A DNA stretch of 64,000 nt from Candidatus Woesearchaeota archaeon (GCA_964591855.1 CAZQAZ010000002.1:36851-100850); one strand, 5' to 3'; counted from the stretch's first letter, positions 2,980-39,273 are shown. Made by a program: numbers and translations. Notes: generated by a model not told the origin, from the sequence alone.

Positions 2980-5078
2980 GAAAATTTGTTTATATTGCTG
3001 CTGTTGTATTGATTCTGCTAGTTGTACATCTGTCACTAGGGCTGCAGTACGACCAGAATACTAAGTGTGGAGATAAGGCCTTATCTAACAAGTTTGTTTT
3101 CTCTATTGATAACGGCTGTAAGCCATACGGTCAGAGTGGTAAGTATGTATTTACTTTTAGGGATGGGTTAGCAGCTAGAGGGGCATGTTTTGCAGAGGAT
3201 GGAAGATGTACAGAAAGCAGGTGTGATTTCTCACAACCAGATGGTTCCTTTTGTGCAGTAGGTGTTGGCATAGATAAAGGTGCTACGGAGTATGGTGCTA
3301 TTTGTAGTAGTAAAGATTATGCAGCATGGGACAACTCTTCAGGAGCATGCGTCGAATGTTCAGGAATATATGAGCTTGGAAAGTATGCCGACCAAAAAGA
3401 TATATACTTATCTCCAGAGAGTCCGCGTATAGACTCAAGTATAATGACTTTGCCAAAAGACACTCTTGGTGAGACAAGAAAGACAGTAGAGTCAGGTTGT
3501 GCAATTAGGATGGGATCTCCACTTGATGTTTATTGGTGCGATGAGTACTATCCCTTCTCTGAGGGCGAAGAATTAAACGAAGATCAAATTGACTTTTACC
3601 TTGATAAAGGAATATTTAGGCCAGATTCCTACAGGAAGGTTATTAAAAGTGAAGGTGATGACTTTGAAAAGTATGAATACTCGGATCCTATTCCCTCTAC
3701 AGAACTTCCACCGATAGCAACAGAGTGTTATACAAAGAATAAGTTTGGACAAGGGAAGTGTGCAGCTTACTGTGGTTATGATGGACAGTTGCATGCTATG
3801 GAATGTGTTGACGATAATGAGTGCCCAGACGCATTCCTCATCACCAAAGATCCAGACTCATCGGACTACTTCCCAAGATATGAAATAAGAAGATCTGTGA
3901 GGCACTGTACAAGGAAACTCCCATTTGAATGTGCAGTCGATTCCGAAGAGGATTTGGATGACTCAAGACAGGCATGTGCAGCTTACGGACTTCAATACAT
4001 TAAAGCAGGAGAGGAAAATGTAGGAGAGTATGTAGACACAGATACACTTGGATGTTGTGGAGATGATGTTTATGCAAATGGGAGACCAAAGGAATTTATA
4101 AGGTACAGGGTGGTTGTTGGAGGAAGGACAGATTATAGTGATGTAGCTTGTTGTGGAGGAGAGGATAGATGTGTATACAATGGCAAGTGTTACAAAGAAG
4201 GATCAGCTGTTACCATAGATGGAAGGAAAGCACATTGTTATAACGGTGTTTGGGTGGCAAGAGGCTTAGACTTATATTATGGCTATCCTTCATATGTAGA
4301 ACTTCCAAAGTGTGGAGACTATATATGTGATGTCTCCACAGGTGAGAATTGTTTCACCTGCCCAATAGACTGTAGCTTTGATAGAGAATTCTCAAGTGTG
4401 GAAGTGTTTGACAAGGAAGTAATGCACAAAGGAGATAAGGATTATTATCCAGACGAAGTTGGAAATTACCATAACAATTCCTTTGATCTTACATGGTCCG
4501 ATAAGATAGTATGCGCTCCGTACTCCAACTTAAAATATAAAAGTCTTTATGGCTGGACTAGAGAAAAGACTAATTTCAATAATTCAAGAGTTGTTGTAAA
4601 GTGCGATAGTGACGAAGGTAAGGGTTGCGACGATGAGTTATCCTGCGAAGGACTATTCTGGTTCAAGCAATCCTCTAATGCTTTCTGCGTTAAGGCTTCG
4701 CCTGGGGATAAGCTTGAAGTTGAGTTGGAGGATGAAAATAGTGGTGATCACAGCAAGATCTTCACTGTAGAAGAAATAGATCCAACAGCAACAGACAGGA
4801 CGAAACCATTTGGATGCTTAAACAAAGGGATAGTATGTTTTTATGTTGATGTACTTGGATTTGACTCCCATAATGTGGAAGAAGACTACGTAGATAAAAT
4901 TAAGAGTGTTAAATACATTCAGTATCCTAAATCAGTTAGATCAACATGTGAATATGATTCGGAATGTGAATCTCATAACTGTGCTAAGTTTGGAGTGACA
5001 GGTGTGTGCTGTCCTTATGGTTACAAATTCAACGGAGAGGAGTGTTACCTTCCAGAGCAGTTTGATTACGACTCTTAG
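2976..5078 (+). CDS. Cysteine-rich secreted/membrane-anchored protein (700 aa) with N-terminal hydrophobic signal/anchor
   Basis: ATG overlaps the upstream stop. N-terminus MRKFVYIAAVVLILLVV is hydrophobic. Many paired Cys (CCGG, CxxC). Confidence 0.6.
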   Translation: MRKFVYIAAVVLILLVVHLSLGLQYDQNTKCGDKALSNKFVFSIDNGCKPYGQSGKYVFTFRDGLAARGACFAEDGRCTESRCDFSQPDGSFCAVGVGIDKGATEYGAICSSKDYAAWDNSSGACVECSGIYELGKYADQKDIYLSPESPRIDSSIMTLPKDTLGETRKTVESGCAIRMGSPLDVYWCDEYYPFSEGEELNEDQIDFYLDKGIFRPDSYRKVIKSEGDDFEKYEYSDPIPSTELPPIATECYTKNKFGQGKCAAYCGYDGQLHAMECVDDNECPDAFLITKDPDSSDYFPRYEIRRSVRHCTRKLPFECAVDSEEDLDDSRQACAAYGLQYIKAGEENVGEYVDTDTLGCCGDDVYANGRPKEFIRYRVVVGGRTDYSDVACCGGEDRCVYNGKCYKEGSAVTIDGRKAHCYNGVWVARGLDLYYGYPSYVELPKCGDYICDVSTGENCFTCPIDCSFDREFSSVEVFDKEVMHKGDKDYYPDEVGNYHNNSFDLTWSDKIVCAPYSNLKYKSLYGWTREKTNFNNSRVVVKCDSDEGKGCDDELSCEGLFWFKQSSNAFCVKASPGDKLEVELEDENSGDHSKIFTVEEIDPTATDRTKPFGCLNKGIVCFYVDVLGFDSHNVEEDYVDKIKSVKYIQYPKSVRSTCEYDSECESHNCAKFGVTGVCCPYGYKFNGEECYLPEQFDYDS

Positions 5079-6325: not shown

Positions 6326-6385
6326 TAAGCTTTTTAAACAAATCCTTTCATATTGTTTTAATCTTAAATGCAGAGGTGATACAAA

Positions 6386-6664
6386 ATGGCAGAAAACGAA
6401 AACGTCATATACATTGGTTCAAAGCCTACAATGAACTACGTCTTAGCTGTGATAACACAGTTCCACAGCGGTGCAAAGCAAGTTGTTGTGAAGGCGAGGG
6501 GAAGAGCAATCTCCAAAGCCGTAGACGTGGTGGAGATTGTGAGAAACAAGTTCATGAACGACGTTAAGCCAACAAAGATAGAAGTCATGACAGAAGAGAT
6601 AGAAACAGAGAAAGGAACAAGGAACATATCAACAATGACAATAACACTTGAGAAGAGTGCATGA
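6386..6664 (+). CDS. albA: Alba chromatin/RNA-binding protein
   Basis: 92 aa. Sequence [22 protein letters not shown]...[21 protein letters not shown] is typical Alba. GAGGTGAT Shine-Dalgarno sits 8 nt upstream. Confidence 0.85.
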
Positions 6665-9578: not shown

Positions 9579-10592
9579 TTAGTGTTCTTTTACTTTCTCC
9601 TTAAGATAGTAATTATAAATAGTTTGAATTATACCTGCTATGAAAGGTCCATAGATGAAACCCATAGGTCCAAATAACATTGGACCTGCAATAAGTGATA
9701 CAAGGACCAAAGCAGGATGAATATCAGAACCTTTTGATGTAAGCATTGGGATTATGTAGAAAGTAGGTAAGATCGATAAGAATATTCCACCATAGAAGAA
9801 GAGGAATACTCCTTGCCATATGTGCCCAACATAAATATGCCATATCGAAGCTGGAATGTATATGAGATATGTTGTAAGGATTGGAAGTAATGCTCCTAAT
9901 GCACAAAGCATTGCAAGTAGAAGGGCAAATGGAGTATTTGTTAAGAAGAAACCTAAGTATGCTAAGACACCAACGATTATTGCAGCTAAGATATATCTTA
10001 TGAAGAAAGACCTGTATACCTCCTCAAGAATTACCAAGAAGCTTTTAACGTTTTTCTTCACATTTTTTGGGGTCAAATAATCCACGAACTCAGATACAGA
10101 GCTTCTGACCTCTTCCTGTTCTGCCAGTAAGAAGAATAGAATGTACAATCCAACTGCTAACTTAAGCAGCGAAATTAAGAACCACTTCGCTGTCTCTTGT
10201 GTTACGACCATGTTATTGACATAGTTAAGCACAAAGCTGGATAGAGTGGGCCCAACTCCTGATAAGCCATACTTGCTAAGTGTTTCACTTAGTTTGTCTT
10301 CTAAGCTAAGTGATTCCGAATAGAAAGAATTAAAGAATGTAAACAAGAAGTACGAGGAGTACACTAAAAAGATGAGTAAGAGAAGCAACAAGATGCCAAT
10401 AATAATAGCCGTTGACTTGAATCTGTTCTTAGTGCGCTTGTCTAATTTTTTTCTGAGGGGGTAGAGTATGAAACTTCCTAGCAAAGCAAGGACCACAGCG
10501 TCTATAAGTGGTGATATCAACAGTAGGCCAAGAGCAAGAAATATGAGCAAAGTAATTGTTTTAAAGTCAAGCTTCATGTTTTTTATTAACAA
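9579..10592 (-). CDS. Polytopic membrane protein, AI-2E (UPF0118/PerM-like) transporter family candidate
   Basis: 337 aa with about 8 predicted transmembrane helices. It sits on the opposite strand between L11 and L1. Confidence 0.45.
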   Translation of the reverse strand: MLIKNMKLDFKTITLLIFLALGLLLISPLIDAVVLALLGSFILYPLRKKLDKRTKNRFKSTAIIIGILLLLLLIFLVYSSYFLFTFFNSFYSESLSLEDKLSETLSKYGLSGVGPTLSSFVLNYVNNMVVTQETAKWFLISLLKLAVGLYILFFLLAEQEEVRSSVSEFVDYLTPKNVKKNVKSFLVILEEVYRSFFIRYILAAIIVGVLAYLGFFLTNTPFALLLAMLCALGALLPILTTYLIYIPASIWHIYVGHIWQGVFLFFYGGIFLSILPTFYIIPMLTSKGSDIHPALVLVSLIAGPMLFGPMGFIYGPFIAGIIQTIYNYYLKEKVKEH

Positions 10593-15317: not shown

Positions 15318-16859
15318 ATGACCAATGAAGAGCAAAGAGAGTTAGCTATAAAAGAGATAATAGATAATTTAGATAGTGTTAACTCTAAAGAAGAATTAGA
15401 AAAGTTGAAGTATAAGGTTTGTAGGAAGTACAAGGTTCCATTGATGCTCAATGCAGATATTCTATCCAGGATCAAAAACCCGTCAGATAAAGTAAAGGAG
15501 CTGCTGACCACGAAACCAATTAGAAGTTTATCTGGTGTTAGTGTCGTTGCTGTGATGACAAAACCATTCCCATGTCCCCATGGTAAATGTGTGATGTGTC
15601 CACAAGGTAAGAATGCCCCGCAAAGTTATACTGGAAAAGAACCTGCCACAATGAGAGCCATTAGTGCTAATTATGATCCCACACTCCAAGTTAAGAATAG
15701 GATAAGACAACTTGAATTAACTGGGCATCCAACTGATAAAATAGAAGTAATTGTTATGGGAGGAACTTTTACTTCTATGCCAAGAGATTACACCACGAAT
15801 TTTGTTAAGGGCATCTTTGATGGTCTGAATGGAGTAAAGGCTAGAACTCTTGAAGAAGCACACATGCTAAATGAGGAATCTAAGCACAGATGCGTTGGAT
15901 TAACTATAGAGACAAGACCTGATTATTGCTTTGAGGACGACATAAGGTATATCCTTAGCCTTGGTGCTACAAGAGTAGAGATTGGTGTGCAGTCTACTTT
16001 TGATGATGTGCTTAAGAAGATAAAGAGAGGACATACTGTGCAGGATTCCATCAAAGCAACACAACTACTGAAGGACTCTTCTTATAAAATAAACTATCAC
16101 ATGATGACGGGTCTCCCAGGATCTAACCCAAAGAAAGACCTTGAGTCATTTAAAAAAATATTTCAAGATCAAAGATTCAAGCCAGATATGATTAAGATAT
16201 ATCCTACTATGGTCATAAAAGGTACGGAGTTGTATGATATGTGGAAGAGGGGAGAATACGAGCCTTACTCTCAAGAAACTCTGATTAACTTATTGGCTGA
16301 CATAAAAAGAATAACTCCAAGATGGGTTAGAATAATGAGGATACAAAGAGACATTCCTCTCAATCAGGCTGAAGCAGGAGTTTTAAAGGGAAATATAAGA
16401 GAAATCTTAAAGACAAAAGTGAAGTGTAATTGTATAAGGTGTAGAGAAGTAGGACATAAGGATCCAAAGTTAGTTAAGGGTCTAAAGCCAAAACTTTTCG
16501 TGGAGGAGTATAGAGCATCCAACTCGAAAGAGTTTTTCATATCCTTCGAAAGCGAAGATCAAGAAGTACTCTTCGGCTTCATAAGGTTAAGAATACCTTA
16601 CAAGCCATTCATGGAGCAAATAACTAAGACTACTGGCTTAATTAGAGAGCTTCACGTGTATGGTAAAGAAGCAAGTTTAGGAAAGGAAGGGTATGTGCAA
16701 CACAAGGGCCTTGGTAGAAAACTTCTAGAGGAAGCGGAGTCCATAGCCAAGTCTGAAGGTATGGACAAGATGGTGATAATAAGTGGTGTTGGAGTTAGGC
16801 CATACTTTAAAAAGTTTGGCTATAGAAGAGATGGTCCATACATGTCAAAATCATTATAA
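15318..16859 (+). CDS. elp3: Elp3-like radical SAM/GNAT tRNA uridine-34 modification enzyme
   Basis: CPHGKCVMC (CX4CX2C) radical-SAM cluster, a C-terminal GNAT domain, and the FPCPHGKC motif typical of Elp3. Confidence 0.9.
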   Translation: MTNEEQRELAIKEIIDNLDSVNSKEELEKLKYKVCRKYKVPLMLNADILSRIKNPSDKVKELLTTKPIRSLSGVSVVAVMTKPFPCPHGKCVMCPQGKNAPQSYTGKEPATMRAISANYDPTLQVKNRIRQLELTGHPTDKIEVIVMGGTFTSMPRDYTTNFVKGIFDGLNGVKARTLEEAHMLNEESKHRCVGLTIETRPDYCFEDDIRYILSLGATRVEIGVQSTFDDVLKKIKRGHTVQDSIKATQLLKDSSYKINYHMMTGLPGSNPKKDLESFKKIFQDQRFKPDMIKIYPTMVIKGTELYDMWKRGEYEPYSQETLINLLADIKRITPRWVRIMRIQRDIPLNQAEAGVLKGNIREILKTKVKCNCIRCREVGHKDPKLVKGLKPKLFVEEYRASNSKEFFISFESEDQEVLFGFIRLRIPYKPFMEQITKTTGLIRELHVYGKEASLGKEGYVQHKGLGRKLLEEAESIAKSEGMDKMVIISGVGVRPYFKKFGYRRDGPYMSKSL

Positions 16860-16871
16860 ACAGGAACAGAC

Positions 16872-17987
16872 TTGTTATATTTGGTGATGGAGATGAAGAT
16901 AAAGTTCTCAAGGAAACCTGTTGTCTGCTACGAAGATGAATCTGTGTTTAAGGCAATATCTAGAATGGAGAGAAATAAAGTTAAGGCCTTACCTGTTGTG
17001 GACAAGAAGGGAAGGCTTAAGGGAATTTTCTCAGAGTACAGGATTTTATATCAGCTCAAAAATCCAAATGAGTACACTAAGGTTAAGTCGGCTATGCAAA
17101 GTGCAACTTCTTTAGAAAAAGATAAAGATGAACTTCAAGCCCTTAATCTAATGGTACAGACAGGATTTGAAACTATACCAGTAGTTGTGAAGGACAAAGT
17201 TGTAGGTATAATCTCAGACTATGATATGCTTAAGAAGTTCAAGGATTCACCTTTGTTTAAGCACATGCTTGTAACAGACATAATGTACAAGGCTGTGAAG
17301 GTTAAGCACGATGACCCAATATCAAAAGCTAGAGACCTAATGAAGAAAAACAGGGTGGACTCCCTCCCTGTTTATAAGAGAGATGATTTCATAGGCGTAG
17401 CTGTGGCCCGCAGGTTGCTTGAGAAGTTCTTAAGCATACCAATAACAAAAGAAGCCAGGAAGGGCGAGAGGGTTGGAATAAAACTTAAAAGATTTTCTGC
17501 ACCAGTTGAGACTTTAATTGAGAGATCAATAAAGCCAATATCCGATACAGACACATTAAGTGAAGGTCTAGCAAAACTCTTGAAGTATAATTTATCATCA
17601 CTTCCTATCCTTAAAGGAAGTGAAGTGGTTGGCTTTTTAAGAAGAATGGACATAATGAAGCTAATTAGTAACAAGCTTAAATCTAAAGACATATTCGTTA
17701 ACGTATCCGGTAAAGTTAGTCTCGAAGAGGCTAGAGCTATAATCGAACAGGTAAAGGATAGAATTAAAAAAGTGAATTACTTGTTTAAGAACACAAGAAG
17801 GGTGGACATTTACATAAAGAGGCCATTAATCAAACATTACTTCGTAGCACATATGTACCTTGATAACCCAAGATTACAGGTTAAGTACGAAGGAAAAGAT
17901 CTTATGAAGACCATACACGACACTATGGACAAGGTTGAGGAGATACTAGAAAAAGAGCTAAGGATTAAAAAGTCTAGAAAGCATTAG
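16872..17987 (+). CDS. Four-CBS-domain protein fused to a C-terminal HPF/YfiA (S30AE)-like ribosome hibernation domain
   Basis: Four CBS repeats across aa 10-265. The C-terminal 95 aa (IFVNVSGKVSLEEARAIIEQVKDRIKK...MYLDNPRLQVKYEGKDLMKTIHDTMDKVEEILEKELRIKKSRKH) aligns by eye with bacterial HPF/RaiA. Confidence 0.55.
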   Translation: MLYLVMEMKIKFSRKPVVCYEDESVFKAISRMERNKVKALPVVDKKGRLKGIFSEYRILYQLKNPNEYTKVKSAMQSATSLEKDKDELQALNLMVQTGFETIPVVVKDKVVGIISDYDMLKKFKDSPLFKHMLVTDIMYKAVKVKHDDPISKARDLMKKNRVDSLPVYKRDDFIGVAVARRLLEKFLSIPITKEARKGERVGIKLKRFSAPVETLIERSIKPISDTDTLSEGLAKLLKYNLSSLPILKGSEVVGFLRRMDIMKLISNKLKSKDIFVNVSGKVSLEEARAIIEQVKDRIKKVNYLFKNTRRVDIYIKRPLIKHYFVAHMYLDNPRLQVKYEGKDLMKTIHDTMDKVEEILEKELRIKKSRKH

Positions 17988-17996
17988 TTTTAGGGA

Positions 17997-18069
17997 AGCC
18001 CCGTCGTCTAGTGGTCAAGGATGCGGGCCTTTGGAGCCTGAGACCCCGGTTCGAATCCGGGCGGGGCTA
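17997..18069 (+). tRNA. tRNA-Gln (anticodon TTG)
   Basis: Acceptor AGCCCCG/CGGGGCT. Anticodon stem CGGGC/GCCTG with loop CTTTGGA. T-arm CCCGG-TTCGAAT-CCGGG. The D-arm pairing is imperfect in the hand fold. Confidence 0.75.
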
Positions 18070-18106
18070 TCATAATTTTTATAAAAGTTCTTATGGTGTT
18101 GAGAAC

Positions 18107-18946
18107 ATGGACTTCGATTCTAATAGAGGAGAAGAGCTTGTCAGGATAGTAATGGATGCTTACTCTTCTAGAGATCCAAAGGAATACTTGGGAAACTTGC
18201 TCCTCCCAGGCGTAGAAACAAATAGCAGAGAGCAAGCTAATTTCTTGTTCTTTGTTGCTATGTTATCCCCCTTCAACAATTCAAATACTTTAGTCAAGAG
18301 AGCAAAGCGCATCTACTCAAAACATAGCGAGATTTTTGACCCAGATAGTGTGGTAGAAGCTATAGAGAAGGATAGAAGTCTCTTTATAGCAACCCTGAGG
18401 GATTTGGAGAATAGGGAAGATTATATAGAAGCGTGGTGTAACAACTCACGAAGGCTGAAGGAGAAGTACAGCTCAGATGCTAGGAAGATATTCGAAACAT
18501 CATCTTACAAGCAGGCTATGGACAACATAACATCCTTCGATAGGTTTGGTGAGAAAACTGGTTCTATGCTTTTAGGATGGTACATCACTCTTGGATTGGT
18601 CGAAGATAATTGGGATGATATATACAATTATCCTACACCTTTAGACACACAAGTTATGAAGTTACTTGTTGGAAGAGAGGTTGTGAGCTTTGAAGGTGAG
18701 GTTGATTACGAGCCTTTGTTTAAGAGAGTTAGACAGGAATTCTCAAGTTTACTTCATGAGTTGGGAGTTAATCCATACTTGTTCCACGACGCAGCTTGGG
18801 ATTATGTTACAGGAGTGTGTAGATATTGTGAAAGGGCGCAGCACCCAGAGTGTTTATTTGGAGAACCTTGTAGGGTAGAATTAGTCACCTCAGATACGAA
18901 ACGTAGGGGGAAAGTTCGAATTACAAAGAAGGAATTTTTCACTTAA
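18107..18946 (+). CDS. Hypothetical protein with a possible HhH-GPD-like motif (PLDTQVMKLLVGRE) and a C-terminal 4-Cys cluster (CX2CX6CX5C)
   Basis: Start moved to the first ATG downstream of the tRNA (MDFDSNRGEEL). A TATA box (TTTTTATAAAAG) lies about 20 nt upstream. The function call is weak. Confidence 0.45.
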   Translation: MDFDSNRGEELVRIVMDAYSSRDPKEYLGNLLLPGVETNSREQANFLFFVAMLSPFNNSNTLVKRAKRIYSKHSEIFDPDSVVEAIEKDRSLFIATLRDLENREDYIEAWCNNSRRLKEKYSSDARKIFETSSYKQAMDNITSFDRFGEKTGSMLLGWYITLGLVEDNWDDIYNYPTPLDTQVMKLLVGREVVSFEGEVDYEPLFKRVRQEFSSLLHELGVNPYLFHDAAWDYVTGVCRYCERAQHPECLFGEPCRVELVTSDTKRRGKVRITKKEFFT

Positions 18947-18950
18947 GAAG

Positions 18951-19703
18951 TTAGATGACTTTCTCTAGCTCCTTCAAGGATTCTATCTTCTTCTTGATGG
19001 CGTTTATTTCATTGAGAATATCCCTCTTGATTCTCTCCACGTCAATAACCTGCATTGGAGTTCCACAGTAGGGACAGAGATAATTAGTTTCCATAGCTTT
19101 AAGCATGCTCATTTGTACTCCACACTCATTGCAAGAGAAGAATTCCTTTCCTTCTTGCTTTAAGTGGTACTTCTTCTCGAGAACCTTAATATCCGAGTTT
19201 AGCTCGTTAATAACGTATTTTATAATGTTCTTGGGATTTATTTCCCAAGTGAAGATGTACCATCCCTTTCTTTTGTCTCTCCTTCTTGAGAAAGATACTA
19301 TCCCTCTGGTTTGTAGCTTGTAAAGTATGGACCTCACCTTATTGACTTTGAGGTTCATTAGTGAAGCTAGCTTGAACTCTGAGATTTTTCTCTTCTCTAA
19401 AAGTATCTTTAGAAGTGTAAATCCGGTCTCATCTAAGAAAGCACTTAATTTCTCATTTATGATCTTGTTCCTTAGTATGAGTTGGTTCTTCTGAGCTTTG
19501 GTTAATCTCTTTGACTTCCTTTTCGTTGTTTTTGTTGGTTTCCCCGCACTTTTCTTCTTTGTGGTTTTAGACTTAGCTTTCCCCGCAACTCTTTTTTTAC
19601 TTCTGGTTATCCTTCCCTTGTGCTTAGTTCTCTTAGAGCGTGTAGAAGAAGCCTTTTTCCTACTAGACTTTGTTGCCATCGTATTAAGTTTACATACAGT
19701 CAT
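18951..19703 (-). CDS. tfe: Transcription factor E (TFIIE-alpha homolog) with a lysine-rich N-terminal extension
   Basis: Winged helix (ISEFKLASLMNLKVNKVRSILYKLQTRGIV) plus zinc ribbon (CNECG...CPYCG). The N-terminal ~75 aa are K/R/S/T-rich. Confidence 0.7.
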   Translation of the reverse strand: MTVCKLNTMATKSSRKKASSTRSKRTKHKGRITRSKKRVAGKAKSKTTKKKSAGKPTKTTKRKSKRLTKAQKNQLILRNKIINEKLSAFLDETGFTLLKILLEKRKISEFKLASLMNLKVNKVRSILYKLQTRGIVSFSRRRDKRKGWYIFTWEINPKNIIKYVINELNSDIKVLEKKYHLKQEGKEFFSCNECGVQMSMLKAMETNYLCPYCGTPMQVIDVERIKRDILNEINAIKKKIESLKELEKVI

Positions 19704-19720
19704 GAAATATATACTTTACC

Positions 19721-20848
19721 CTAAAGAATGTATGGTCCAACAATGTTAATTATAAGAATGATGGTCACGAATCCTATTATGGCATTTGCTATGCTAAGCC
19801 TTAACTTATCGTTCTTCGTGAAGTATCCTAAGAACTCAAAGAGCATCTTACACCCATCTGTTATCCAGAGTACGGGCAAGAAGTTGATTATACCTATAGC
19901 CATATTCAACAAGCCAAGCCAGAATATTAAGTTATATAATCCTATTAGTATTGATCCTTCAAAGTCCCTTGGTGCGTAGTGATCTCTAAATTCCCCACCC
20001 AATCTTCCAGATCCGGTGGCTTCGTCTTTGCTTAGTGTTACAATATATTCCCCACGGGATGTATTAAGTACTAGGGTTTGATTAGGCAAGGTATTTGACA
20101 TGAAAGCCTTGAATGTTGTTATGTTCATATGGGTTCCGTTTATAGTGTATATTACGTCACCACTTGATAAATTTGTTAAGGAAAGAGGCTCACCTTTTAT
20201 GTTGAATATACCTATACCCTCATGCATCACATGTGGGGAGCTTGCTATGTGCACAGCGAGGTATGACCCCAAAAGCATGAAAACAAAAGCAAACACTATG
20301 TTTGCACCACTACCTGCGGAAAGAATCCTCAACCTATCTATGATTCTTGCTTTGTTCATACTCTTCTCATCAGGTTCGACAAATGCTAATGGTATAGGTA
20401 AAGGTAATAGAAATCCAAACCCAGCATTTTTAATACGCACTTTCCTAGCGAATGCAACTATTCCATGGGAAAATTCGTGGACAAACGCTAAGAATATTAT
20501 GGATATTATCCCACTTAGCAATGGAAGGTATGGTCCTCCTGGTAACTTTATTCCAGGAAGTATGAAAGAAGCTCCAGGTGTGGTTACTTTGCCAGTAATT
20601 ATGTCAATGGCATTGTTGTACAAAGCTTTTACTCCGACAGCAGTGAAGTAAACTGCAAGCAAAATGAACAGTGTCGACAACACTGTCCAGAACAGAGCTG
20701 GCTTTGCTAGTTTCTTCATGAGGTTTACTCCTTTCTTTGTTCTGTGAAGAAAGAAGACTTTGTTCTCAATCTGAAACTTTTTCCTATTCAAAAGTATGAG
20801 AACAATGACTAATACGTAAAAACTTAAGCTCACTAGGAGAGAGTTCAT
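19721..20848 (-). CDS. Site-2 protease family (M50) membrane metalloprotease with PDZ domain
   Basis: HEFSHG HExxH motif within a transmembrane helix, multiple TM segments, and a central PDZ-like region. Confidence 0.8.
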   Translation of the reverse strand: MNSLLVSLSFYVLVIVLILLNRKKFQIENKVFFLHRTKKGVNLMKKLAKPALFWTVLSTLFILLAVYFTAVGVKALYNNAIDIITGKVTTPGASFILPGIKLPGGPYLPLLSGIISIIFLAFVHEFSHGIVAFARKVRIKNAGFGFLLPLPIPLAFVEPDEKSMNKARIIDRLRILSAGSGANIVFAFVFMLLGSYLAVHIASSPHVMHEGIGIFNIKGEPLSLTNLSSGDVIYTINGTHMNITTFKAFMSNTLPNQTLVLNTSRGEYIVTLSKDEATGSGRLGGEFRDHYAPRDFEGSILIGLYNLIFWLGLLNMAIGIINFLPVLWITDGCKMLFEFLGYFTKNDKLRLSIANAIIGFVTIILIINIVGPYIL

Positions 20849-20849
20849 C

Positions 20850-21026
20850 TTACCCCTTCTTTGAGACTTCCTTTTTCTTAGGCCTTAGGCCCTTGTATCC
20901 ACACTTTCTGCACTTGGCTCTGCCCTTCTTTAGAGCGGAAGGGTTACTAACCCTTATCTTAGACTTACACTTCTTACATACGTAAACATTTTTGAACAAT
21001 CTGTTTTCTACCTCTTTGAATTTCAT
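20850..21026 (-). CDS. rpl40e: 50S ribosomal protein L40e
   Basis: Hand-translated 58-aa ORF below the track cutoff: [59 protein letters not shown]4 zinc-ribbon pattern of L40e. Confidence 0.8.
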
Positions 21027-22562: not shown

Positions 22563-23465
22563 ATGAGGAAATTTGTGTTGTTGGCCATGCTTGTGTTGTG
22601 TCTAGGTTTATCTTATGCTGCAGACATAGATAAGGCCCTTATATCTATTAATCCCTATGGGAAGGCCCATGTTGAGTATACTTTGGATGTAAATGCGTCT
22701 TCATTAGAGACCATAACTATCCCAAAACCCCTAGCTGGAAGTGTTAAACTGTATCAGGATGGAGAACCTTTGGATTACAAGCTTATCAAATCAGGTGCTG
22801 AGACTTATGATGTGATCTTCACATCAAGAATAAGTAAGGTAAAACTTGAGTTTGATACTTATCTTCTAACCAGCAAGATTGGAGAGTATTGGCATGCAAA
22901 TGTAACAATGAATGTGAAACCAGATGCAACTGTTCTACTAACTCTCCCAATAAATGTGATAATCGAAGACATTAAAAGCAATGGCAACACAAGAACGTAT
23001 GCAGGTACAACCGCATTAATAGTAGAAGCTAAAGCCATAGAGCCACATTTTAACCTGTTTGTTAAGTACATGGTTAAAGGCTCTTCATCAAAGAAAAGCA
23101 ATATTCTCCCATATCTATTGGGAGGAGCCCTTATAGTTTTAGTTGGGGTTGTAATATTCTTGTATCACAGGTTTAAGGCTGCACAATTAAAGCTTAAGAG
23201 GAAGGTTAAAAGAAAGCCAAGAAAAGTTAAAGGTAAGAGGATCAAGAAGAGTGTTGATAAAGTTTTAGATAGAAATGAGAGGAAAGTGGTTTACTTTTTG
23301 AAAGACGTGGTAGACGCTACACACTCACAGATACATAGAGCAACTAAACTTCCAAAGACAACCTTAACTAAAGTACTTCAAAGGCTGGAGAAGAGAAACT
23401 TAATTAAGAAGATACCATTTGGTAAGAGGTATAGATTTGCTCTTCAGGATTGGGTCTTTGAGTAG
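22563..23465 (+). CDS. Membrane-anchored winged-HTH protein: Sec signal, extracytoplasmic domain, one TM helix, cytoplasmic basic linker plus wHTH
   Basis: Signal MRKFVLLAMLVLCLGLSYA. TM helix ILPYLLGGALIVLVGVVIFLY. C-terminal HTH VVYFLKDVVDATHSQIHRATKLPKTTLTKVLQRLEKRNLI. Confidence 0.5.
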   Translation: MRKFVLLAMLVLCLGLSYAADIDKALISINPYGKAHVEYTLDVNASSLETITIPKPLAGSVKLYQDGEPLDYKLIKSGAETYDVIFTSRISKVKLEFDTYLLTSKIGEYWHANVTMNVKPDATVLLTLPINVIIEDIKSNGNTRTYAGTTALIVEAKAIEPHFNLFVKYMVKGSSSKKSNILPYLLGGALIVLVGVVIFLYHRFKAAQLKLKRKVKRKPRKVKGKRIKKSVDKVLDRNERKVVYFLKDVVDATHSQIHRATKLPKTTLTKVLQRLEKRNLIKKIPFGKRYRFALQDWVFE

Positions 23466-30705: not shown

Positions 30706-31107
30706 TTAAGTTTGGCCAGACTGTCCACAAGAGGCCACACAAGTTCCTCCAAAGTTGTCTACTAGTTTACATGTTGTAATTTCATAGCATGGCGTCTTTT
30801 TGCCTTCAATGTAATAATGTCCATTACAGAACTTTGATGCAAGATTACCATACTCCTTACTACTATCTATACATCCTTCGTATCTAAGCTCCCCAGAATC
30901 TAATCTTTCGGTAAGATTTATCCCAGCAGGTAGAGCAGATCTGTCTTGCATACATAAGTTCAAACAAAAGGAAGTAGCCTTAATTGAAGAAGTTCCACTT
31001 TCTCCTTTAGCAGATTTTGAGATAAGCATAACGGCTGCTGCTAAGACCATTAGACCTATCCCAACTGCTACTAGAAAATTCATCATAGCACTTCCTTTCT
31101 TTGGCAT
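30706..31107 (-). CDS. Class III signal peptide (type IV pilin-like) cysteine-rich protein, paralog 2
   Basis: MPKKG/SAMMNFLVAVGIGLMVLAAAV followed by FCLNLCMQDRS...CYEITTCKLVDNFGGTC. Confidence 0.7.
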   Translation of the reverse strand: MPKKGSAMMNFLVAVGIGLMVLAAAVMLISKSAKGESGTSSIKATSFCLNLCMQDRSALPAGINLTERLDSGELRYEGCIDSSKEYGNLASKFCNGHYYIEGKKTPCYEITTCKLVDNFGGTCVASCGQSGQT

Positions 31108-35259: not shown

Positions 35260-38200
35260 TTAACACTGTAGCCATGAAGCTATGCAGTTGTATTCTGGGA
35301 GCTTACAGCAGTAGCCGCTTGCCTTACACTTCTCTAGGTTGTCTTGATTTGTTTGGAAGGTTGGCCCTATCTTGTTAAGCTCACAAACTGTAGGGGTTGG
35401 ACTTTCACCCTCTTCGAAGTTCCACACGTCACTTCCACAGCTATTCAAGCTCCCACAAGTGACAGGCTCTCCACCATCTTTCAAACAAGCCTCCACACAA
35501 GCTTTTCCAAAATCCGTTGAATCCCTGCTTATGTAACAATCACCCAAACTGCAGGTTAGCACTTGATCACAATATACAGTTGTTCCTTCGACATTGAAAC
35601 TTAAGCTTGCAAAGTCTGAACTATTAAAGTAACACACCCCATTGATGTTAACAAACTCTTTGTTTGTGTCATTCATACAAGCTTCCTCACACATCCTCTG
35701 AATCTCAGGATGTGTGGATATTATCTTCTCCACATTTGTATGTTTGATTAATGTGTTACAATCGTACACGTTATTGGATCCAAGATCGTTAGGGAGTATA
35801 TCACCTTTTGTATCCAGTAGACACACATTTCCTTCCATCTTGTTATTGTTGAAAGTCACAGGAGTATCAAACACAAACCCATATACATTGTTCACGAAGT
35901 TGTTACTGTCAAACACACCACTGCATTCGCTACATAGCACACCATAGTAATTAGAGTAGAATGTATTACCTACCACGTTTACATTTCCACCTATAGCACT
36001 TATGCCAGAGTCTGAGTTCGAGAATGAAGATGATTTGATATTTCCAACACCAGAGACTCTGACATAATTTAACCCAGTTATATCGGAGTCTTCGATTGTT
36101 ATATTACCATAAGATTCAATCTTAAAGTCCTTATCTGCATAATGGATTTTAACCCCCTTCAGCGTGAGGTTTCCATAGTTCACCAAACTACATGGAGATG
36201 TACAGTTGATGTACAAGTTAACATTCTCTAAAGTAAGATTTCCATGCACAGTTGTATTCTTAAGGAGCACAACACCTAAGTTCTTAACATTACAGTTGTC
36301 GGATTTCTCAACTATCCAATCTTTGTACGTTGAAGGATAGCACCTATTCTCTTCGAGAACAGCAATAATCTTTTTTGGAGAATCAAATCTAACTTTAAGT
36401 GTGGTGTAGTTATAATGTCTCCAGTAATTTAAGACCTGAGCACCTGTTACGTTGACTGTGTAATCTCCCACATCAATTAAGTTAAAGTCCTTGTCGAGAT
36501 AATACGCCTGTCCACACCATGTTTTAACTGGCGAAGAAATGTATCCTGCATCACATTCTAAAATCCTTGTGGTTGGATAGGGTCTTATCTTATTTCCATT
36601 TGTGTCTTTAATTTCTATCTCTATTATGCTTGTTGATGCAATTAAACCTTTAGTATTGCTATCAGGCAAGAGTGTGTTTTTCGAACTCAAGCTATTAAAG
36701 AAAGCTTCGATATCACTCCCAGATATGTCTGAGTTGACGAGCATTATTAAGAATGAACCTCCTTTTAAAGTGTTCCCTTCTATGTCAACATTGTTTTCCG
36801 AAGTAAGTCTTATAGGATTGTTATAGTACTTGTAGTCCTTTACGGTTACAGAGTTGTGTTTAATGGAACCTGAGGAGTTGGATACAGAGATCCATCCAAC
36901 ATTCATATCATTTGATGTTAAGTTTATTGTAGAGTTTGTTATTGCTAAACCAATTGATTGATCTACATCATTGTTGCTAAACTCCACCGTTGAGTTGTAA
37001 GAGTAGAGAGGATAGACTACACCAACTATGTTGCTCTCATTAATCTTAGCTTTTGAGTTAAGCACATAAAATCCATAGTATGTTTTGTAACTTCTACCGC
37101 CAGAGAATGTGAAGTTGGTGTTTGATATGTTCACACCCTTTTCATCGGATATGTAAACACCGCCATACATTCTCTTATATGGACCCGACATGAATCTATT
37201 CTTATAGAATGTGACATTCTTGTTATTTATGAGGTAGACCTCAAATATGTAACTTGATGTATTTGTGTGGAAGGTGTTATTTGTTATGTTGATGTATGAG
37301 TTTGTTGAATAGATCCCCCTCGCTCCGAAAAATGTGGAGTTGGAGACAGTTATGTTAGAGCCTCTTGCGAAGAGTCCATAATAACTCTTGTCCACCACAT
37401 TTTTAAGTGTCAAGTTAGACTCAACCGAAACAACACTTACTCCCTTGTTGTTGAAGAAAGCGTCCTTAATTTCCCCACTTGAGTTGAAGTAGTAAAGAAG
37501 CTTATTGACCTTACCAAAATCTCCAAATGATCCATAAAAGTCTTGCTTGGTGTTGAGATTGTATAGAAGTATCTTAACATTGTCTGCTTTGTTACCCCTT
37601 CCATATACTTTGTTGGTGTTGTGGATTCCTAACTTATAGTCGTATGAGAACGAGTTACCGAAGAATAATGCTTCTCCGTAATTGTAGACGAAGGAATATG
37701 CATGATCCCATGTGTTACTAATAAACCTTGTCCCTACAGCATAGTTTTTAACAGGGATGTATGCGTTTGTGAATACATTCTTTAATAGAACAGTGGGCTC
37801 CACTATGTTTAAAGCCCTCCTTCCAAAGAAAGTGTTTCCAACGAGTTTAATCTTCTCGCCCACATCAAAGTCTTTGTCTAGTTCTATGTTATTCCCTTTT
37901 AGAACGATATGATTACTAAGTGACAGTTGGCTGGTTTTGATACTGTTTCCTCTTATCACAGCCTTACTTGTTCTCACATCTAACTCTGAGTTGTGAAGTA
38001 TTGATTTTTGGATGTTCAATGAGGATCCTTCTAAAGCAGTTATGTATGCCTTACTAACAAACGAGCTGGCTATTAGTATTTGACCACCCTGGTTAGCTTG
38101 TATGGTCTTTGAGTTTCCATTAAGGTAAGAGTTTATTAAAACAAGCGCTCCACCGTCCTTCACCACAATAGGATACTTTAAGTCTATGTCTTTACCATAA

Positions 38201-39273
38201 CAAACCTCCACGTCTTTAATCTCCCAAGTTCTATCTTCTGGTATTCTACAATTGGATATGTCGTACACTCTATATTCGTTGTTTGTGTAGTTTGCATCGC
38301 CTTGTGTGGAGTTTACCACAAGTCTCAATGGAAGAATAGAACCCATATTGAAAGCATCGTATTTTGTGTTGAGCATTATAGTGCCTGCAGTCCCAACTGG
38401 GAGTGTTCCTTTTGTATACTCCAGAAGCTTTTGGTTTCTTTTGTTGAACAAGGTTAAGTTATAGTCCTCAGCGTCTACGAGTCCAAGATTATAAACTGAA
38501 GTCTGAAGAGTTCCTTCTAGAGGAGTGTAGTATAACACGTATGGCTTAATTTCTGCTTGGGAACCCATATCAAATTTAATTGATATGGTATTCGAATTAA
38601 AGAGATGTGAGAAGTCATAAGGTTCAGAATCATTTGAGGCACCATTCTCTATAATAGCTTCGTATGTTCCATCGGCTCCAAAGTCTACTCTTATTTTCCC
38701 AGAGTAGCTTGTTGTCAAGTTTGCGAAGTAGATGACAGCTCCTTGTGGTAAAGTAATATGTACTACGTCCCCTGGATTAATAGTGTTTCCCTCATTAAAA
38801 GTGTTGGTTACGTTGATCTCATTAAGAGTGAAGTTAAACTCAGCACCAAGTATTGTTTGGTCTGGAAGATAAACGAGTGAACAGTCTTGTGGACACGTTT
38901 CTTCTGTTTCATTCCCATTACATATTCCATCTCCACAGTATGCCCCAACACATGTTCTCTTGGATACGACACAAGTACGTCCAGAACTATCGGTCAATGT
39001 ACATTTAACGTAGTTATAACAGTCCTTCGAACAGAAGTTTGGAGCCAGACCTTGGCTACAGAACCCCCTATCAGATGTAACGGTTCTGACGATATTATTG
39101 TCCTCTTCACATAACTCCCTACATTCTTTCTCAAGGCTAACTATACTTTGAACTTGCTCCGTTCCACCTTTAGATCTGATAACCAAGAAGTATACTGCTG
39201 CAAGAACGGCAACTGCTATTATTACAACAGCTAGAATCTCTACGCTGCTAGCCCTCTTGTAAGCTTTGTACAT
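35260..39273 (-). CDS. Giant (1337 aa) class III signal peptide surface protein/adhesin candidate: pilin-like N-terminus, Cys module A, long N-x-S/T-rich beta-helix-like repeat region, C-terminal Cys modules A and B
   Basis: N-terminus MYKAYKRA/SSVEILAVVIIAVAVLAAV. Then EKECRELCEEDNN...CSQGLAPNFCS. Central region is rich in N, S, T and Y with dozens of NxS/T sequons (NITNNTFHTNTSSY...). C-terminus MCEEACMNDTN...YCDQVLTCSLGDC and KACVEACLKDGG...CCKLPEYNCIASWLQC. Confidence 0.75.
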   Translation of the reverse strand: MYKAYKRASSVEILAVVIIAVAVLAAVYFLVIRSKGGTEQVQSIVSLEKECRELCEEDNNIVRTVTSDRGFCSQGLAPNFCSKDCYNYVKCTLTDSSGRTCVVSKRTCVGAYCGDGICNGNETEETCPQDCSLVYLPDQTILGAEFNFTLNEINVTNTFNEGNTINPGDVVHITLPQGAVIYFANLTTSYSGKIRVDFGADGTYEAIIENGASNDSEPYDFSHLFNSNTISIKFDMGSQAEIKPYVLYYTPLEGTLQTSVYNLGLVDAEDYNLTLFNKRNQKLLEYTKGTLPVGTAGTIMLNTKYDAFNMGSILPLRLVVNSTQGDANYTNNEYRVYDISNCRIPEDRTWEIKDVEVCYGKDIDLKYPIVVKDGGALVLINSYLNGNSKTIQANQGGQILIASSFVSKAYITALEGSSLNIQKSILHNSELDVRTSKAVIRGNSIKTSQLSLSNHIVLKGNNIELDKDFDVGEKIKLVGNTFFGRRALNIVEPTVLLKNVFTNAYIPVKNYAVGTRFISNTWDHAYSFVYNYGEALFFGNSFSYDYKLGIHNTNKVYGRGNKADNVKILLYNLNTKQDFYGSFGDFGKVNKLLYYFNSSGEIKDAFFNNKGVSVVSVESNLTLKNVVDKSYYGLFARGSNITVSNSTFFGARGIYSTNSYINITNNTFHTNTSSYIFEVYLINNKNVTFYKNRFMSGPYKRMYGGVYISDEKGVNISNTNFTFSGGRSYKTYYGFYVLNSKAKINESNIVGVVYPLYSYNSTVEFSNNDVDQSIGLAITNSTINLTSNDMNVGWISVSNSSGSIKHNSVTVKDYKYYNNPIRLTSENNVDIEGNTLKGGSFLIMLVNSDISGSDIEAFFNSLSSKNTLLPDSNTKGLIASTSIIEIEIKDTNGNKIRPYPTTRILECDAGYISSPVKTWCGQAYYLDKDFNLIDVGDYTVNVTGAQVLNYWRHYNYTTLKVRFDSPKKIIAVLEENRCYPSTYKDWIVEKSDNCNVKNLGVVLLKNTTVHGNLTLENVNLYINCTSPCSLVNYGNLTLKGVKIHYADKDFKIESYGNITIEDSDITGLNYVRVSGVGNIKSSSFSNSDSGISAIGGNVNVVGNTFYSNYYGVLCSECSGVFDSNNFVNNVYGFVFDTPVTFNNNKMEGNVCLLDTKGDILPNDLGSNNVYDCNTLIKHTNVEKIISTHPEIQRMCEEACMNDTNKEFVNINGVCYFNSSDFASLSFNVEGTTVYCDQVLTCSLGDCYISRDSTDFGKACVEACLKDGGEPVTCGSLNSCGSDVWNFEEGESPTPTVCELNKIGPTFQTNQDNLEKCKASGYCCKLPEYNCIASWLQC

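What the first reader, a model, noticed from the sequence alone, without database searches (positions are those of the whole stretch)
18951..19703. TFE (TFIIE-alpha) with a ~75-aa lysine/arginine/serine/threonine-rich N-terminal tail
Archaeal TFE is normally about 170-190 aa (winged helix + zinc ribbon). This one is 250 aa. It opens with ATKSSRKKASSTRSKRTKHKGRITRSKKRVAGKAKSKTTKKKSAGKPTKTTKRKSKRLTKAQKNQ, a histone-H1/HU-tail-like polycationic stretch, before the canonical WH domain. A basic tail on a general transcription initiation factor could provide non-specific DNA anchoring. It could also replace missing chromatin proteins in a reduced genome. The gene is cotranscribed (17-nt gap) with the S2P protease and L40e.
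Basis: seen in the sequence. Interest (0 to 1): 0.5.

Follow-up and report, generated by a model that had tools for sequence, protein, structure and literature searches.

The report
TFE transcription factor with polycationic tail
This DPANN (Nanoarchaeota-type) archaeon's general transcription initiation factor TFE carries a real, unavoidable, disordered tail of about 66 residues with net charge +29 at its N-terminus; such tails turn out to be common on TFE in this phylum, usually at the other end of the protein, and probably act as a non-specific DNA tether.

Summary
Window 18951-19703 (minus strand) encodes a TFE-alpha/TFIIE-alpha homologue with an intact winged helix, wing tryptophan and four-cysteine zinc ribbon. 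It is preceded by a disordered tail with 29 K/R and no D/E in 66 residues.

The tail cannot be skipped. After codons 1 and 9, the next in-frame ATG/GTG/TTG is codon 116, inside the winged helix. The likely start is codon 9 (MATKSS, 19679; 242 aa). A conserved BRE/TATA-like box between the S2P stop and this ATG fits the window's leaderless promoter geometry, so TFE probably has its own promoter.

The tail is not unique.
- Among the query plus its 120 closest homologue clusters, 87 have a polycationic C-terminal tail (median 79 aa, net +35), 5 an N-terminal tail, 1 both and 28 none.
- An exhaustive search found 28 further N-tailed clusters.
- Close relatives (56% core identity) differ in which end carries the tail.
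- In the flanking genes of 86 loci, 50 of the 51 strongly cationic segments are in TFE.

Best reading: a position-independent electrostatic nucleic-acid tether on TFE (inferred, not shown). The idea that it replaces missing chromatin proteins is not supported, because the window encodes Alba. I found no paper describing this. It is a new variant of a known kind, of moderate interest.

The parts
18951..19679 (-). Most likely TFE-alpha coding sequence (242 aa plus stop), starting at MATKSS (codon 9 of the maximal ORF)
   Evidence: Searches give the ORF and family. The 99% twin P0001 was called from this ATG. Promoter geometry favours this start.
19680..19703 (-). Eight extra codons (MTVCKLNT) of the maximal ORF, probably untranslated because they lie at or upstream of the predicted transcription start
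   Evidence: The BRE/TATA-like box ends 0 nt before this ATG but 24 nt before the M9 ATG. In the window, the box typically ends 19-21 nt before the ATG of first genes.
19705..19719 (-). BRE/TATA-like box GTAAAGTATATATTT in the S2P-TFE spacer
   Evidence: The same motif sits upstream of the orthologues: L001 5966-5979, L003 and L006 316-329. It matches the window's promoter consensus with a PWM score of 4.5, just under the 99.7th-percentile threshold of 5.5.
19482..19679 (-). Polycationic disordered N-terminal tail, residues 1-66 (M9 numbering): 29 K/R, 0 D/E, about 30% S/T, net +29
   Evidence: Composition statistics are. AlphaFold2 gives coil with pLDDT about 50 for residues 1-55. No significant tandem DNA repeat. 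No Pfam family on the tail.
19239..19481 (-). Extended winged-helix domain (residues about 67-147), including the wing motif K138-G139-W140
   Evidence: Pfam PF02002. Invariant columns E101, F102, R116, L119, Y120, D135, K138, G139, W140, I142 and W145. pLDDT above 90. Foldseek hits to TFE-alpha and TFIIE-alpha.
19152..19235 (-). Long connecting helix (residues 149-176) between winged helix and zinc ribbon
   Evidence: AlphaFold2 secondary structure H149-176. It corresponds to helix alpha-5 of P. furiosus TFE-alpha (PMC7704642).
19044..19142 (-). Zinc ribbon (residues about 180-212) with Cys183, Cys186, Cys202 and Cys205
   Evidence: Read from the sequence (SCNEC...CPYC). C183, C202 and C205 are invariant in alignment A1. 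Weak zinc-ribbon Pfam hits.
18954..19040 (-). C-terminal helix (residues 214-241). No C-terminal tail in this protein.
   Evidence: AlphaFold2 H214-241. C-extension is 0-3 aa.
19721..20848 (-). Upstream neighbour: M50 / site-2 protease (375 aa). Its position next to TFE is conserved.
   Evidence: Pfam Peptidase_M50 at 8.5e-20. Synteny in L001, L003, L005, L006, L012, L024, L042 and L049.
20850..21026 (-). Ribosomal protein L40e (58 aa), 1 nt upstream of the S2P start
   Evidence: NCBIfam L40e at 2.8e-10, below its cut-off. Conserved in L001 and L003.

Best explanation
The gene encodes a functional monomeric TFE-alpha: an extended winged helix with the wing tryptophan, a connecting helix and a four-cysteine zinc ribbon. 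An intrinsically disordered polycationic tail of about 66 residues (net +29) is obligatorily fused to its N-terminus.

Shown here:
- The tail is part of any functional product of this gene.
- It is predicted to be disordered.
- Its charge, not its sequence, is conserved.
- Equivalent tails sit on TFE in a large share of Nanoarchaeota, at either terminus.

Inferred mechanism:
- The folded core docks on the RNA polymerase clamp and stalk as in other archaea.
- The tail acts as a flexible, sequence-independent electrostatic tether to the phosphate backbone of promoter-flanking DNA (possibly also nascent RNA).
- This would raise TFE's local concentration on the nucleoid, and stabilise the pre-initiation and open complexes.
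- It may supply DNA contacts that TFE-beta / TFIIE-beta give elsewhere. TFE-beta is reported absent from DPANN.
- A disordered 60-150-residue chain can reach DNA from either end of the small core, which would explain why position (N or C) is free to change while charge is kept.
For: Family and fold:
- Pfam TFIIE_alpha at 2.4e-15.
- The AlphaFold2 core has pLDDT above 90.
- Foldseek top hits are yeast Tfa1 (7o4i_W), T. kodakarensis TFE-alpha (6kf4_G, TM 0.69) and human TFIIE-alpha.
- The wing KGW motif and zinc-ribbon cysteines are conserved.

Tail is translated:
- In-frame starts exist only at codons 1, 9 and 116.

Disorder:
- Residues 1-55 are coil with pLDDT about 50.

Selection on charge:
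- 29 K/R and 0 D/E in 66 aa, against a proteome of 14.4% and 13.0%.
- Orthologues at 59%, 53% and 38% identity have unalignable tails of the same composition.
- All three amino-acid differences from the 99% twin lie in the tail and keep or add charge (R>K, R>K, G>R). The core is 100% identical.

Recurrence and positional freedom:
- 87 C-tail, 5 N-tail, 1 both and 28 none among the query plus 120 clusters.
- 66 C, 29 N, 2 both and 54 none among the best 150 representatives plus the query.
- At least 41 of 80 species representatives have long tails by a conservative measure.
- L030 (N-tail only) is 56% identical in the core to P0049 (C-tail only). L046 and L054 have both.
- N-only and C-only are the usual states.

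Specificity to TFE:
- Among 472 ORFs of at least 100 aa in 86 loci, 50 of the 51 with a +20/50-aa segment are TFE. The other is a ribosomal protein.
- Only TFE reaches +30 in the window.

Context from papers:
- TFE-alpha contacts the non-template strand at the upstream bubble edge and helps most at weak promoters and sub-optimal conditions (PMC7704642).
- TFE-beta is absent from DPANN (PMC7289017).
- Lysine-rich low-complexity tails modulate DNA binding of unrelated proteins such as mycobacterial Ku and Hlp (PMC3553676).
Against: - No binding experiment exists. DNA binding is inferred from charge alone.
- Tails are evolutionarily labile. A crude NJ tree needs about 21 N-tail and 26 C-tail state changes.
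- Many Nanoarchaeota TFEs lack tails, including the nearest syntenic relatives L024, L042 and L049. The tail is therefore not essential for TFE function in the phylum.
- In mycobacterial Ku, removing the lysine-rich tail increased DNA affinity, so 'more charge means a tighter, useful tether' is not automatic.
- Group II Euryarchaeota also lack TFE-beta and are not known to carry such tails (my own knowledge, not tested here). This weakens the TFE-beta compensation idea.
- N-terminal tail lengths in metagenomic relatives depend on unverified gene-caller starts.
Confidence: 0.6

Rival explanations
1. Tolerated low-complexity growth. An A-rich, easily expandable coding segment drifts at the unconstrained termini of TFE in AT-rich, small-population symbiont genomes, and has no specific role.
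For: - The tails are unalignable, vary from about 30 to 150 aa, and are gained and lost often.
- Close relatives are tail-less.
- The tail-coding DNA is 48% A.
Against: - There are no acidic residues in 66 aa despite GAA/GAT being one step from AAA/AAT (P about 1e-4).
- Orthologous N-tails have D/E at or below 3%.
- The feature is almost exclusive to TFE among neighbouring genes (50 of 51).
- It recurs at either end but rarely at both, and it was kept across relatives whose cores have diverged to about 30-40% identity.
- No significant tandem DNA repeat points to recent slippage. One weak 9-nt array scores 32.
Confidence: 0.15
2. The tail binds RNA or drives condensate/nucleoid partitioning rather than promoter DNA. 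For example, it captures nascent transcripts, couples to ribosomes on leaderless mRNAs, or concentrates the transcription machinery by complex coacervation with nucleic acids.
For: - Polycationic K-rich disordered regions of eukaryotic snoRNPs act through electrostatics in RNA-rich compartments (PMC11528048, listed; abstract only).
- The window's first genes are leaderless, so initiation and translation start sites coincide.
- The composition cannot discriminate DNA from RNA.
Against: - TFE is displaced by Spt4/5 early in elongation (PMC7289017), which leaves little time for a role on nascent RNA.
- There is no RNA-binding domain and no partner in the neighbourhood.
- Nothing here tests it.
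Confidence: 0.13
3. The tail is a protein-interaction or regulatory module. It docks on an acidic surface or tail of another factor (TBP, the RNAP stalk, or an acidic chromatin protein), or serves as a substrate for Lys acetylation or Ser/Thr phosphorylation that switches TFE activity.
For: - About 30% S/T in this clade's tails.
- A conserved neighbourhood includes an ELP3-like radical-SAM/GNAT acetyltransferase gene two genes away, in the window and in L001, L003 and L005.
- A subgroup of long N-tails begins with a conserved short motif, MG(I/L)(L/F)(N/D)x(I/L)K, suggestive of a docking peptide.
Against: - S/T content is low (about 5-10%) in most C-terminal tails, so S/T is not a general requirement.
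- The window's tail has no conserved linear motif.
- ELP3 is primarily a tRNA-modification enzyme (established knowledge).
- No acidic partner was identified.
Confidence: 0.09
4. Annotation artefact: the real protein starts after the tail and is a canonical TFE of about 175 aa.
For: Canonical TFE length is about 165-185 aa. The NCBIfam models are 162 and 185 positions long.
Against: - There is no ATG, GTG or TTG in frame between codon 9 and codon 116. Codon 116 lies inside helix 3 of the winged helix.
- The frame stays open through the tail while all five other frames contain stops.
- Orthologues keep an open N-terminal tail with a conserved promoter box at the right distance from the tail's ATG.
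- C-terminal tails in relatives end at stop codons and cannot be start-codon artefacts.
Confidence: 0.03

Closest known systems
Archaeal TFE-alpha / eukaryotic TFIIE-alpha (Pfam PF02002; structures 6KF4 chain G, 1Q1H, 6PLN, 5GPY)
   Same: Extended winged helix with the wing KGW tryptophan, a long connecting helix and a four-cysteine zinc ribbon. Same fold by Foldseek, and it passes the Pfam gathering score.
   Different: It carries a polycationic disordered N-terminal tail of about 66 aa that the solved archaeal proteins lack. Eukaryotic TFIIE-alpha instead has a long acidic C-terminal region (my own knowledge). It scores below the NCBIfam equivalog cut-offs, so the core is divergent.
C-terminally tailed TFE of Woese-/Pacearchaeota-type Nanoarchaeota (e.g. 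P0004, P0009, P0079, P0102; unnamed in the literature I could search)
   Same: Same core family at 30-38% identity. Same kind of appendage: K/R 45-69%, few acidic residues, 50-137 aa.
   Different: The tail is on the opposite end, is poorer in S/T and often begins with a K/E-rich helical stretch. The window's clade (Q, P0001, P0002, P0003, P0006) has it at the N-terminus and no C-extension.
Lysine-rich low-complexity tails on bacterial DNA-binding proteins (mycobacterial Ku and Hlp/HupB PAKKA repeats; chlamydial Hc1/Hc2; eukaryotic linker histone H1 C-terminal domain)
   Same: A disordered K-rich appendage on a folded nucleic-acid-related domain. It evolved repeatedly and acts through charge (PMC3553676). 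One relative's C-tail (P0100) even carries a precomputed Pfam HC2 (PF07382) hit.
   Different: This is analogy, not homology. The window's tail has no PAKKA, SPKK or AT-hook (RGRP) motif (read from the sequence) and no Pfam hit. The host protein is a general initiation factor bound to RNA polymerase, not an architectural or repair protein.
TFE-beta / TFIIE-beta (Tfa2)
   Same: A possible functional overlap only: additional DNA contacts within the initiation complex.
   Different: TFE-beta is a separate subunit with winged-helix domains (plus an Fe-S cluster domain in archaea) and is reported absent from DPANN (PMC7289017). The tail shares no sequence or fold with it. Compensation is a hypothesis.

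Membership tests
TFE-alpha / TFIIE-alpha (PF02002, TIGR00373) | [quoted passage not shown] | tested here: met
   Pfam TFIIE_alpha at E 2.4e-15, 56.7 bits against a gathering score of 22.9, residues 82-181 of the 250-aa ORF. The AlphaFold2 model has pLDDT above 90. Foldseek matches 6kf4_G, 6pln_A and 1q1h.
TFE-alpha / TFIIE-alpha (PF02002, TIGR00373) | Wing with a conserved aromatic residue that contacts the non-template strand (W75 in T. kodakarensis) | tested here: met
   K138-G139-W140 is invariant in 28 aligned homologues. The role of the wing Trp is taken from PMC7704642. Residue-to-residue equivalence is inferred from the motif position, not from a superposition.
TFE-alpha / TFIIE-alpha (PF02002, TIGR00373) | C-terminal zinc ribbon with four metal ligands | tested here: met
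   Cys183, 186, 202 and 205 (SCNEC...CPYC). Three are invariant in alignment A1. The model shows beta-strands at 180-212.
TFE-alpha / TFIIE-alpha (PF02002, TIGR00373) | Score above the NCBIfam equivalog trusted cut-off | tested here: not met
   NF004910 scores 110.1 bits against a cut-off of 180. TIGR00373 scores 107.3 against 149.5. The core is divergent, as for other DPANN proteins. E-values are still about 1e-31 over the full model length.
TFE-alpha / TFIIE-alpha (PF02002, TIGR00373) | Binds the RNA polymerase clamp coiled-coil and stalk, and stimulates open-complex formation | not testable with these tools
   This needs biochemistry with the cognate or a compatible RNA polymerase.
Histone H1 / Hc2-type or AT-hook / SPKK DNA-binding tails (as homologous or motif-defined families) | Profile match (e.g. 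PF07382 HC2) or defining short motifs (RGRP AT-hook; S/T-P-K-K) | tested here: not met
   No Pfam family covers residues 1-70 at E <= 0.1 apart from a non-significant MIC5 hit. No RGRP or SPKK motif is present in the sequence (read directly). The resemblance is compositional only.
Intrinsically disordered polycationic nucleic-acid-binding tail (functional class, not a homology family) | High net positive charge, depletion of acidic and hydrophobic residues, predicted disorder, composition conserved while sequence is not | tested here: met
   +29 over 66 aa with 0 D/E. Coil with pLDDT about 50. Orthologous tails are unalignable but of the same composition.
Intrinsically disordered polycationic nucleic-acid-binding tail (functional class, not a homology family) | Demonstrated binding to DNA or RNA | not testable with these tools
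   EMSA or anisotropy with and without the tail is required.

The most novel reading that the evidence does not exclude
Polycationic tails are a phylum-wide, selected adaptation of Nanoarchaeota transcription initiation. On this reading TFE has become a nucleoid-anchored general factor whose histone-tail-like appendage substitutes for the missing TFE-beta DNA contacts. The appendage can sit at either terminus, and may be tuned by lysine acetylation or Ser/Thr phosphorylation. That would be a prokaryotic precedent for charge-regulated disordered tails on the basal transcription machinery.
Probability: 0.15. Interest if true: 0.65.

Novelty: new variant of a known kind. Interest (0 to 1): 0.45.

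Why it matters
TFE is one of only three general initiation factors in archaea, and its architecture (winged helix plus zinc ribbon) is treated as invariant.

A large, uncultured archaeal radiation routinely adds a 30-150-residue polycationic disordered tail to it, at either end. This gives a concrete, testable handle on how minimal-genome DPANN archaea, which lack TFE-beta, stabilise promoter opening.

It is also a clean natural experiment on position-independent, charge-only function of disordered regions: N-only, C-only, both and none occur among close relatives.

Practically, it warns annotators that TFE genes of 220-320 aa in these lineages are not mis-called starts or fusions.

Tried and rejected
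1. Internal start after the tail: rejected. No in-frame ATG/GTG/TTG lies between codons 9 and 116.
2. M1 as the start: disfavoured. The BRE/TATA-like box abuts it at 0 nt, whereas boxes end 19-21 nt before the ATG elsewhere in the window and 24 nt before M9. The PWM was built from upstream regions of the same window, so the positional peak is partly circular, and the TFE box scores just under the 99.7th percentile.
3. Proteome-wide lysine richness as the cause: rejected.
4. Recent tandem-repeat expansion: only one weak 9-nt array, score 32.
5. Homology of the tail to a known family: none found.
6. 'No chromatin proteins': an Alba homologue lies at 6380-6661. No histone was found in the 64 kb, which says little about the whole genome.
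7. Single origin of N-tails: rejected. L030 and L047 group with C-tailed or tail-less cores, and the NJ tree suggests many changes. That tree is crude, built from about 167 columns at about 30% identity.
8. Literature: five full-text searches found no description of basic tails on archaeal TFE. The library lacks most subscription-journal papers, so absence is not proof.
9. Taxonomic placement by rRNA: no rRNA in the window. Placement rests on protein neighbours, which are Woese-/Pacearchaeota/Nanoarchaeia MAGs.
10. My first core-HMM measurement of extensions mis-scored some loci, because secondary domain hits fell in the tails. It was replaced by anchor-based and best-domain measures.

Full report
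**1. Observation**

The window holds an ORF at 18951-19703 on the minus strand, 250 aa from the first ATG.
- Pfam assigns residues 82-181 to TFIIE_alpha (E 2.4e-15, 56.7 bits, above the gathering score).
- The NCBIfam TFE equivalogs align over residues 71-244 (E about 1e-31), though below their strict cut-offs.

Counted from the second Met (M9), the first 66 residues contain 29 K/R, no D/E and about 30% S/T.
- The 61 long ORFs of the window average 14.4% K+R and 13.0% D+E.
- This gives binomial P = 7.5e-9 for the K/R count and about 1e-4 for the absence of acidic residues.
- It is the most cationic 66-residue stretch of any protein in the window: +30, against +20 for the next.

**2. Is the tail really translated, and from where?**

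In-frame ATG/GTG/TTG codons occur only at codons 1, 9, 116 and 123. Codon 116 lies inside helix 3 of the winged helix. A functional TFE therefore cannot be made from this gene without the tail. The other five reading frames of the tail DNA contain stops.

The window's genes show a clear promoter architecture.
- A purine-rich BRE plus TATA box (consensus roughly aAAGnTTTATAaa) ends 19-21 nt before the ATG of most first genes. This implies leaderless mRNAs.
- Operon-internal genes carry GGTG/GGAGG Shine-Dalgarno sequences instead.

In the spacer between the S2P stop (19721) and TFE lies GTAAAGTATATATTT (19719-19705).
- It ends 0 nt before the first ATG and 24 nt before the M9 ATG.
- The same motif lies upstream of the orthologues in L001, L003 and L006. 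It ends 21-23 nt before the called ATG in L001 and L006; in L003 the spacing is as in the window.
- I conclude, by inference, that TFE has its own promoter, that the mRNA is leaderless or nearly so, and that translation starts at M9 (19679), giving 242 aa. The 99%-identical database twin P0001 was called the same way.
- Co-transcription with S2P by read-through is not excluded.

**3. The folded part**

AlphaFold2 on a 28-sequence alignment gave mean pLDDT 84.
- Residues 1-55 are coil at pLDDT about 50.
- Residues 61-242 mostly exceed 90: helices and strands of an extended winged helix, a long helix (149-176), a small beta-ribbon (180-212) and a terminal helix.

Foldseek against the PDB returned yeast Tfa1 in pre-initiation complexes, T. 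kodakarensis TFE-alpha bound to RNA polymerase (6kf4_G, TM 0.69 normalised to the target), human TFIIE-alpha, P. furiosus TFE-alpha and S. solfataricus 1q1h.

The alignment shows invariant E101, F102, R116, L119, Y120, D135, K138, G139, W140, I142, W145, C183, C202 and C205. The KGW motif sits at the wing tip, where T. kodakarensis W75 stacks on the non-template base at -9 (PMC7704642). The core thus looks like a working TFE-alpha.

**4. Relatives**

A search of 5.8 billion clustered proteins found 217 homologues. I classified the best 120 plus the query by anchor columns (the EF motif and the last Cys).
- 87 have a C-terminal polycationic tail (median 79 aa, median net +35).
- 5 have an N-terminal tail only: the query, P0001, P0002 (59% identity), P0003 (53%) and P0006 (a 152-aa tail).
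- 1 has both, and 28 have none or a short extension.

An exhaustive HMMER scan of 1.84 billion 50%-identity representatives gave 777 hits at E <= 1e-3.
- Among the best 150 plus the query: 66 C, 29 N, 2 both and 54 none.
- The N share is probably inflated, because the query itself carries an N-tail.

In GTDB species representatives, the 80 best loci are all Woesearchaeota, Pacearchaeota or Nanoarchaeia MAGs.
- By a conservative measure, 37 have C-tails, 2 N-tails, 2 both and 39 none or short. About 18 of the last group carry 10-29-aa basic C-extensions.
- C-terminal tails end at stop codons, so they cannot be start-codon artefacts.

**5. Evolutionary pattern**

- The query, P0001-P0003 and P0006 form one clade on an NJ tree. 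They share the L40e-S2P-TFE neighbourhood.
- The nearest genome representatives with the same S2P-TFE synteny (L024, L042, L049) have tail-less TFEs of 181-183 aa. The N-tail is therefore a clade-specific gain.
- L030 (an 88-92-aa N-tail, 60% K/R, no C-tail) is 56% identical in the core to P0049, which has only a C-tail. L046 and L054, in the same group, carry both.
- L047 has an A/K/S/T-rich N-tail but is 66% identical in its core to its best matches, all of which are tail-less.
- A crude NJ tree needs about 21 changes for N-tail state and 26 for C-tail state. This is surely an overestimate, but it shows the feature is labile and recurrent.
- Against the 99% twin, all three amino-acid differences fall in the tail (R>K, R>K, G>R), while the core is identical.
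- Tail sequences do not align between orthologues, yet keep K/R at 42-58% and D/E at or below 3%.

**6. Specificity**

The tails are not a proteome-wide habit.
- Across 472 ORFs of at least 100 aa in the 86 fetched loci, 51 have a 50-residue window with net charge of at least +20.
- 50 of these are TFE and one is a ribosomal protein.
- In the window, only two small ribosomal proteins and one membrane-anchored wHTH protein show shorter basic stretches.

**7. Mechanism**

Shown: an intact TFE core, an obligatory, disordered, strongly cationic appendage, charge conserved without sequence conservation, recurrence at either terminus, and specificity to TFE.

Inferred: the tail is a sequence-independent electrostatic tether to nucleic acid, most simply the DNA flanking the initiation complex.
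- TFE's winged helix sits on the clamp beside the upstream edge of the bubble, and the zinc ribbon sits between clamp and stalk (PMC7704642).
- A flexible chain of 60-150 residues could reach DNA from either end, which would explain the positional freedom.
- A tether would raise occupancy of TFE on the nucleoid and stabilise closed-to-open transitions. TFE matters most at weak promoters and sub-optimal conditions.
- DPANN are reported to lack TFE-beta (PMC7289017), so the tail may compensate for missing DNA contacts. That step is speculative.
- Analogous lysine-rich tails evolved repeatedly on bacterial Ku and Hlp and modulate DNA binding. In Ku, however, removal increased affinity (PMC3553676), so the sign of the effect must be measured.

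**8. Rivals**

- Neutral low-complexity growth (0.15) is opposed by acidic-residue exclusion, TFE specificity and recurrence.
- RNA or condensate roles (0.13) and protein-docking or modification roles (0.09) are not excluded.
- A mis-called start (0.03) is essentially ruled out.
The window encodes an Alba homologue (6380-6661), and Woese-/Pacearchaeota are reported to encode histones and Alba (PMC6136690).

**9. Novelty and score**

TFE is known, and cationic tails on DNA-binding proteins are known. I found no paper describing such tails on archaeal TFE in five full-text searches, and the library is incomplete.

I rate it a new variant of a known kind. A transcription specialist would find the phylum-wide, position-swapping tails noteworthy and easy to test, but not paradigm-changing: interest 0.45.

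Noticed in passing
window 22563-23465 (+): A 300-aa protein with a signal peptide, an ectodomain of about 190 aa, one transmembrane helix, a K/R-rich juxtamembrane stretch (+20 over 66 aa) and a C-terminal wHTH. The wHTH hits are TrmB at 1.2e-4 and MarR_2, both below gathering (sequence). This looks like a membrane-tethered transcription regulator only about 1.7 kb from the S2P/M50 protease gene, so the two may form a regulated-intramembrane-proteolysis pair. L001 and L002 have a TrmB-family gene directly after TFE.
   Followed up: partly
The organism therefore has at least one chromatin protein. No histone was detected in the 64 kb with an HMfB probe.
   Followed up: partly
window 121-2979 (+), 2976-5078 (+), 35260-39273 (-): Three very large ORFs (952, 700 and 1337 aa) with no Pfam family at E <= 1e-3. 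These are typical 'dark' giant proteins of DPANN genomes.
   Followed up: no
whole window (e.g. upstream of 9579-10577 (-), 30706-31107 (-), 33965 (+), 43711 (+), 60120 (+)): Promoter grammar of the organism. A BRE/TATA box (about aAAGnTTTATAaa) ends 19-21 nt before the ATG of first genes, which implies leaderless mRNAs. Operon-internal genes carry GGTG/GGAGG Shine-Dalgarno sequences.
   Followed up: partly
window 15318-17987 (+); L001 7913-11726; L003 4692-6729; L005 4962-7658: A conserved neighbourhood downstream of TFE. It holds a 4xCBS protein with a weak S30AE-like C-terminus (Pfam CBS 2.4e-36) next to an ELP3-like radical-SAM/GNAT protein. It is kept in genomes whose TFEs are only 38-53% identical.
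   Followed up: no
P0006, P0131, P0135, P0138, P0182, P0186 (L005 2735-3700 for P0006): A subgroup of TFEs with very long N-tails (117-152 aa). All begin with a conserved short motif of amphipathic appearance, MG(I/L)(L/F)(N/D)x(I/L)Kx(L/A)xG, before the K-rich stretch. This may be a docking or membrane-binding peptide. It is absent from the window's protein.
   Followed up: no
L012 1360-2259 (+): A Nanoarchaeia TFE with the same S2P synteny. Its C-terminal extension is a K/E-rich stretch followed by two extra Cys/His zinc-finger-like repeats (HYFCDKCNQKH..., YFWCSLCEKKH) instead of a plain basic tail.
   Followed up: no
window 17997-18946 (+): tRNA-Gln (17997-18069) is followed at once by a TATA-like box (tttttataaaa) and a 279-aa ORF (18107-18946) with no Pfam hit. 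The ORF converges on the TFE stop codon and is conserved only in the 99% twin.
   Followed up: no
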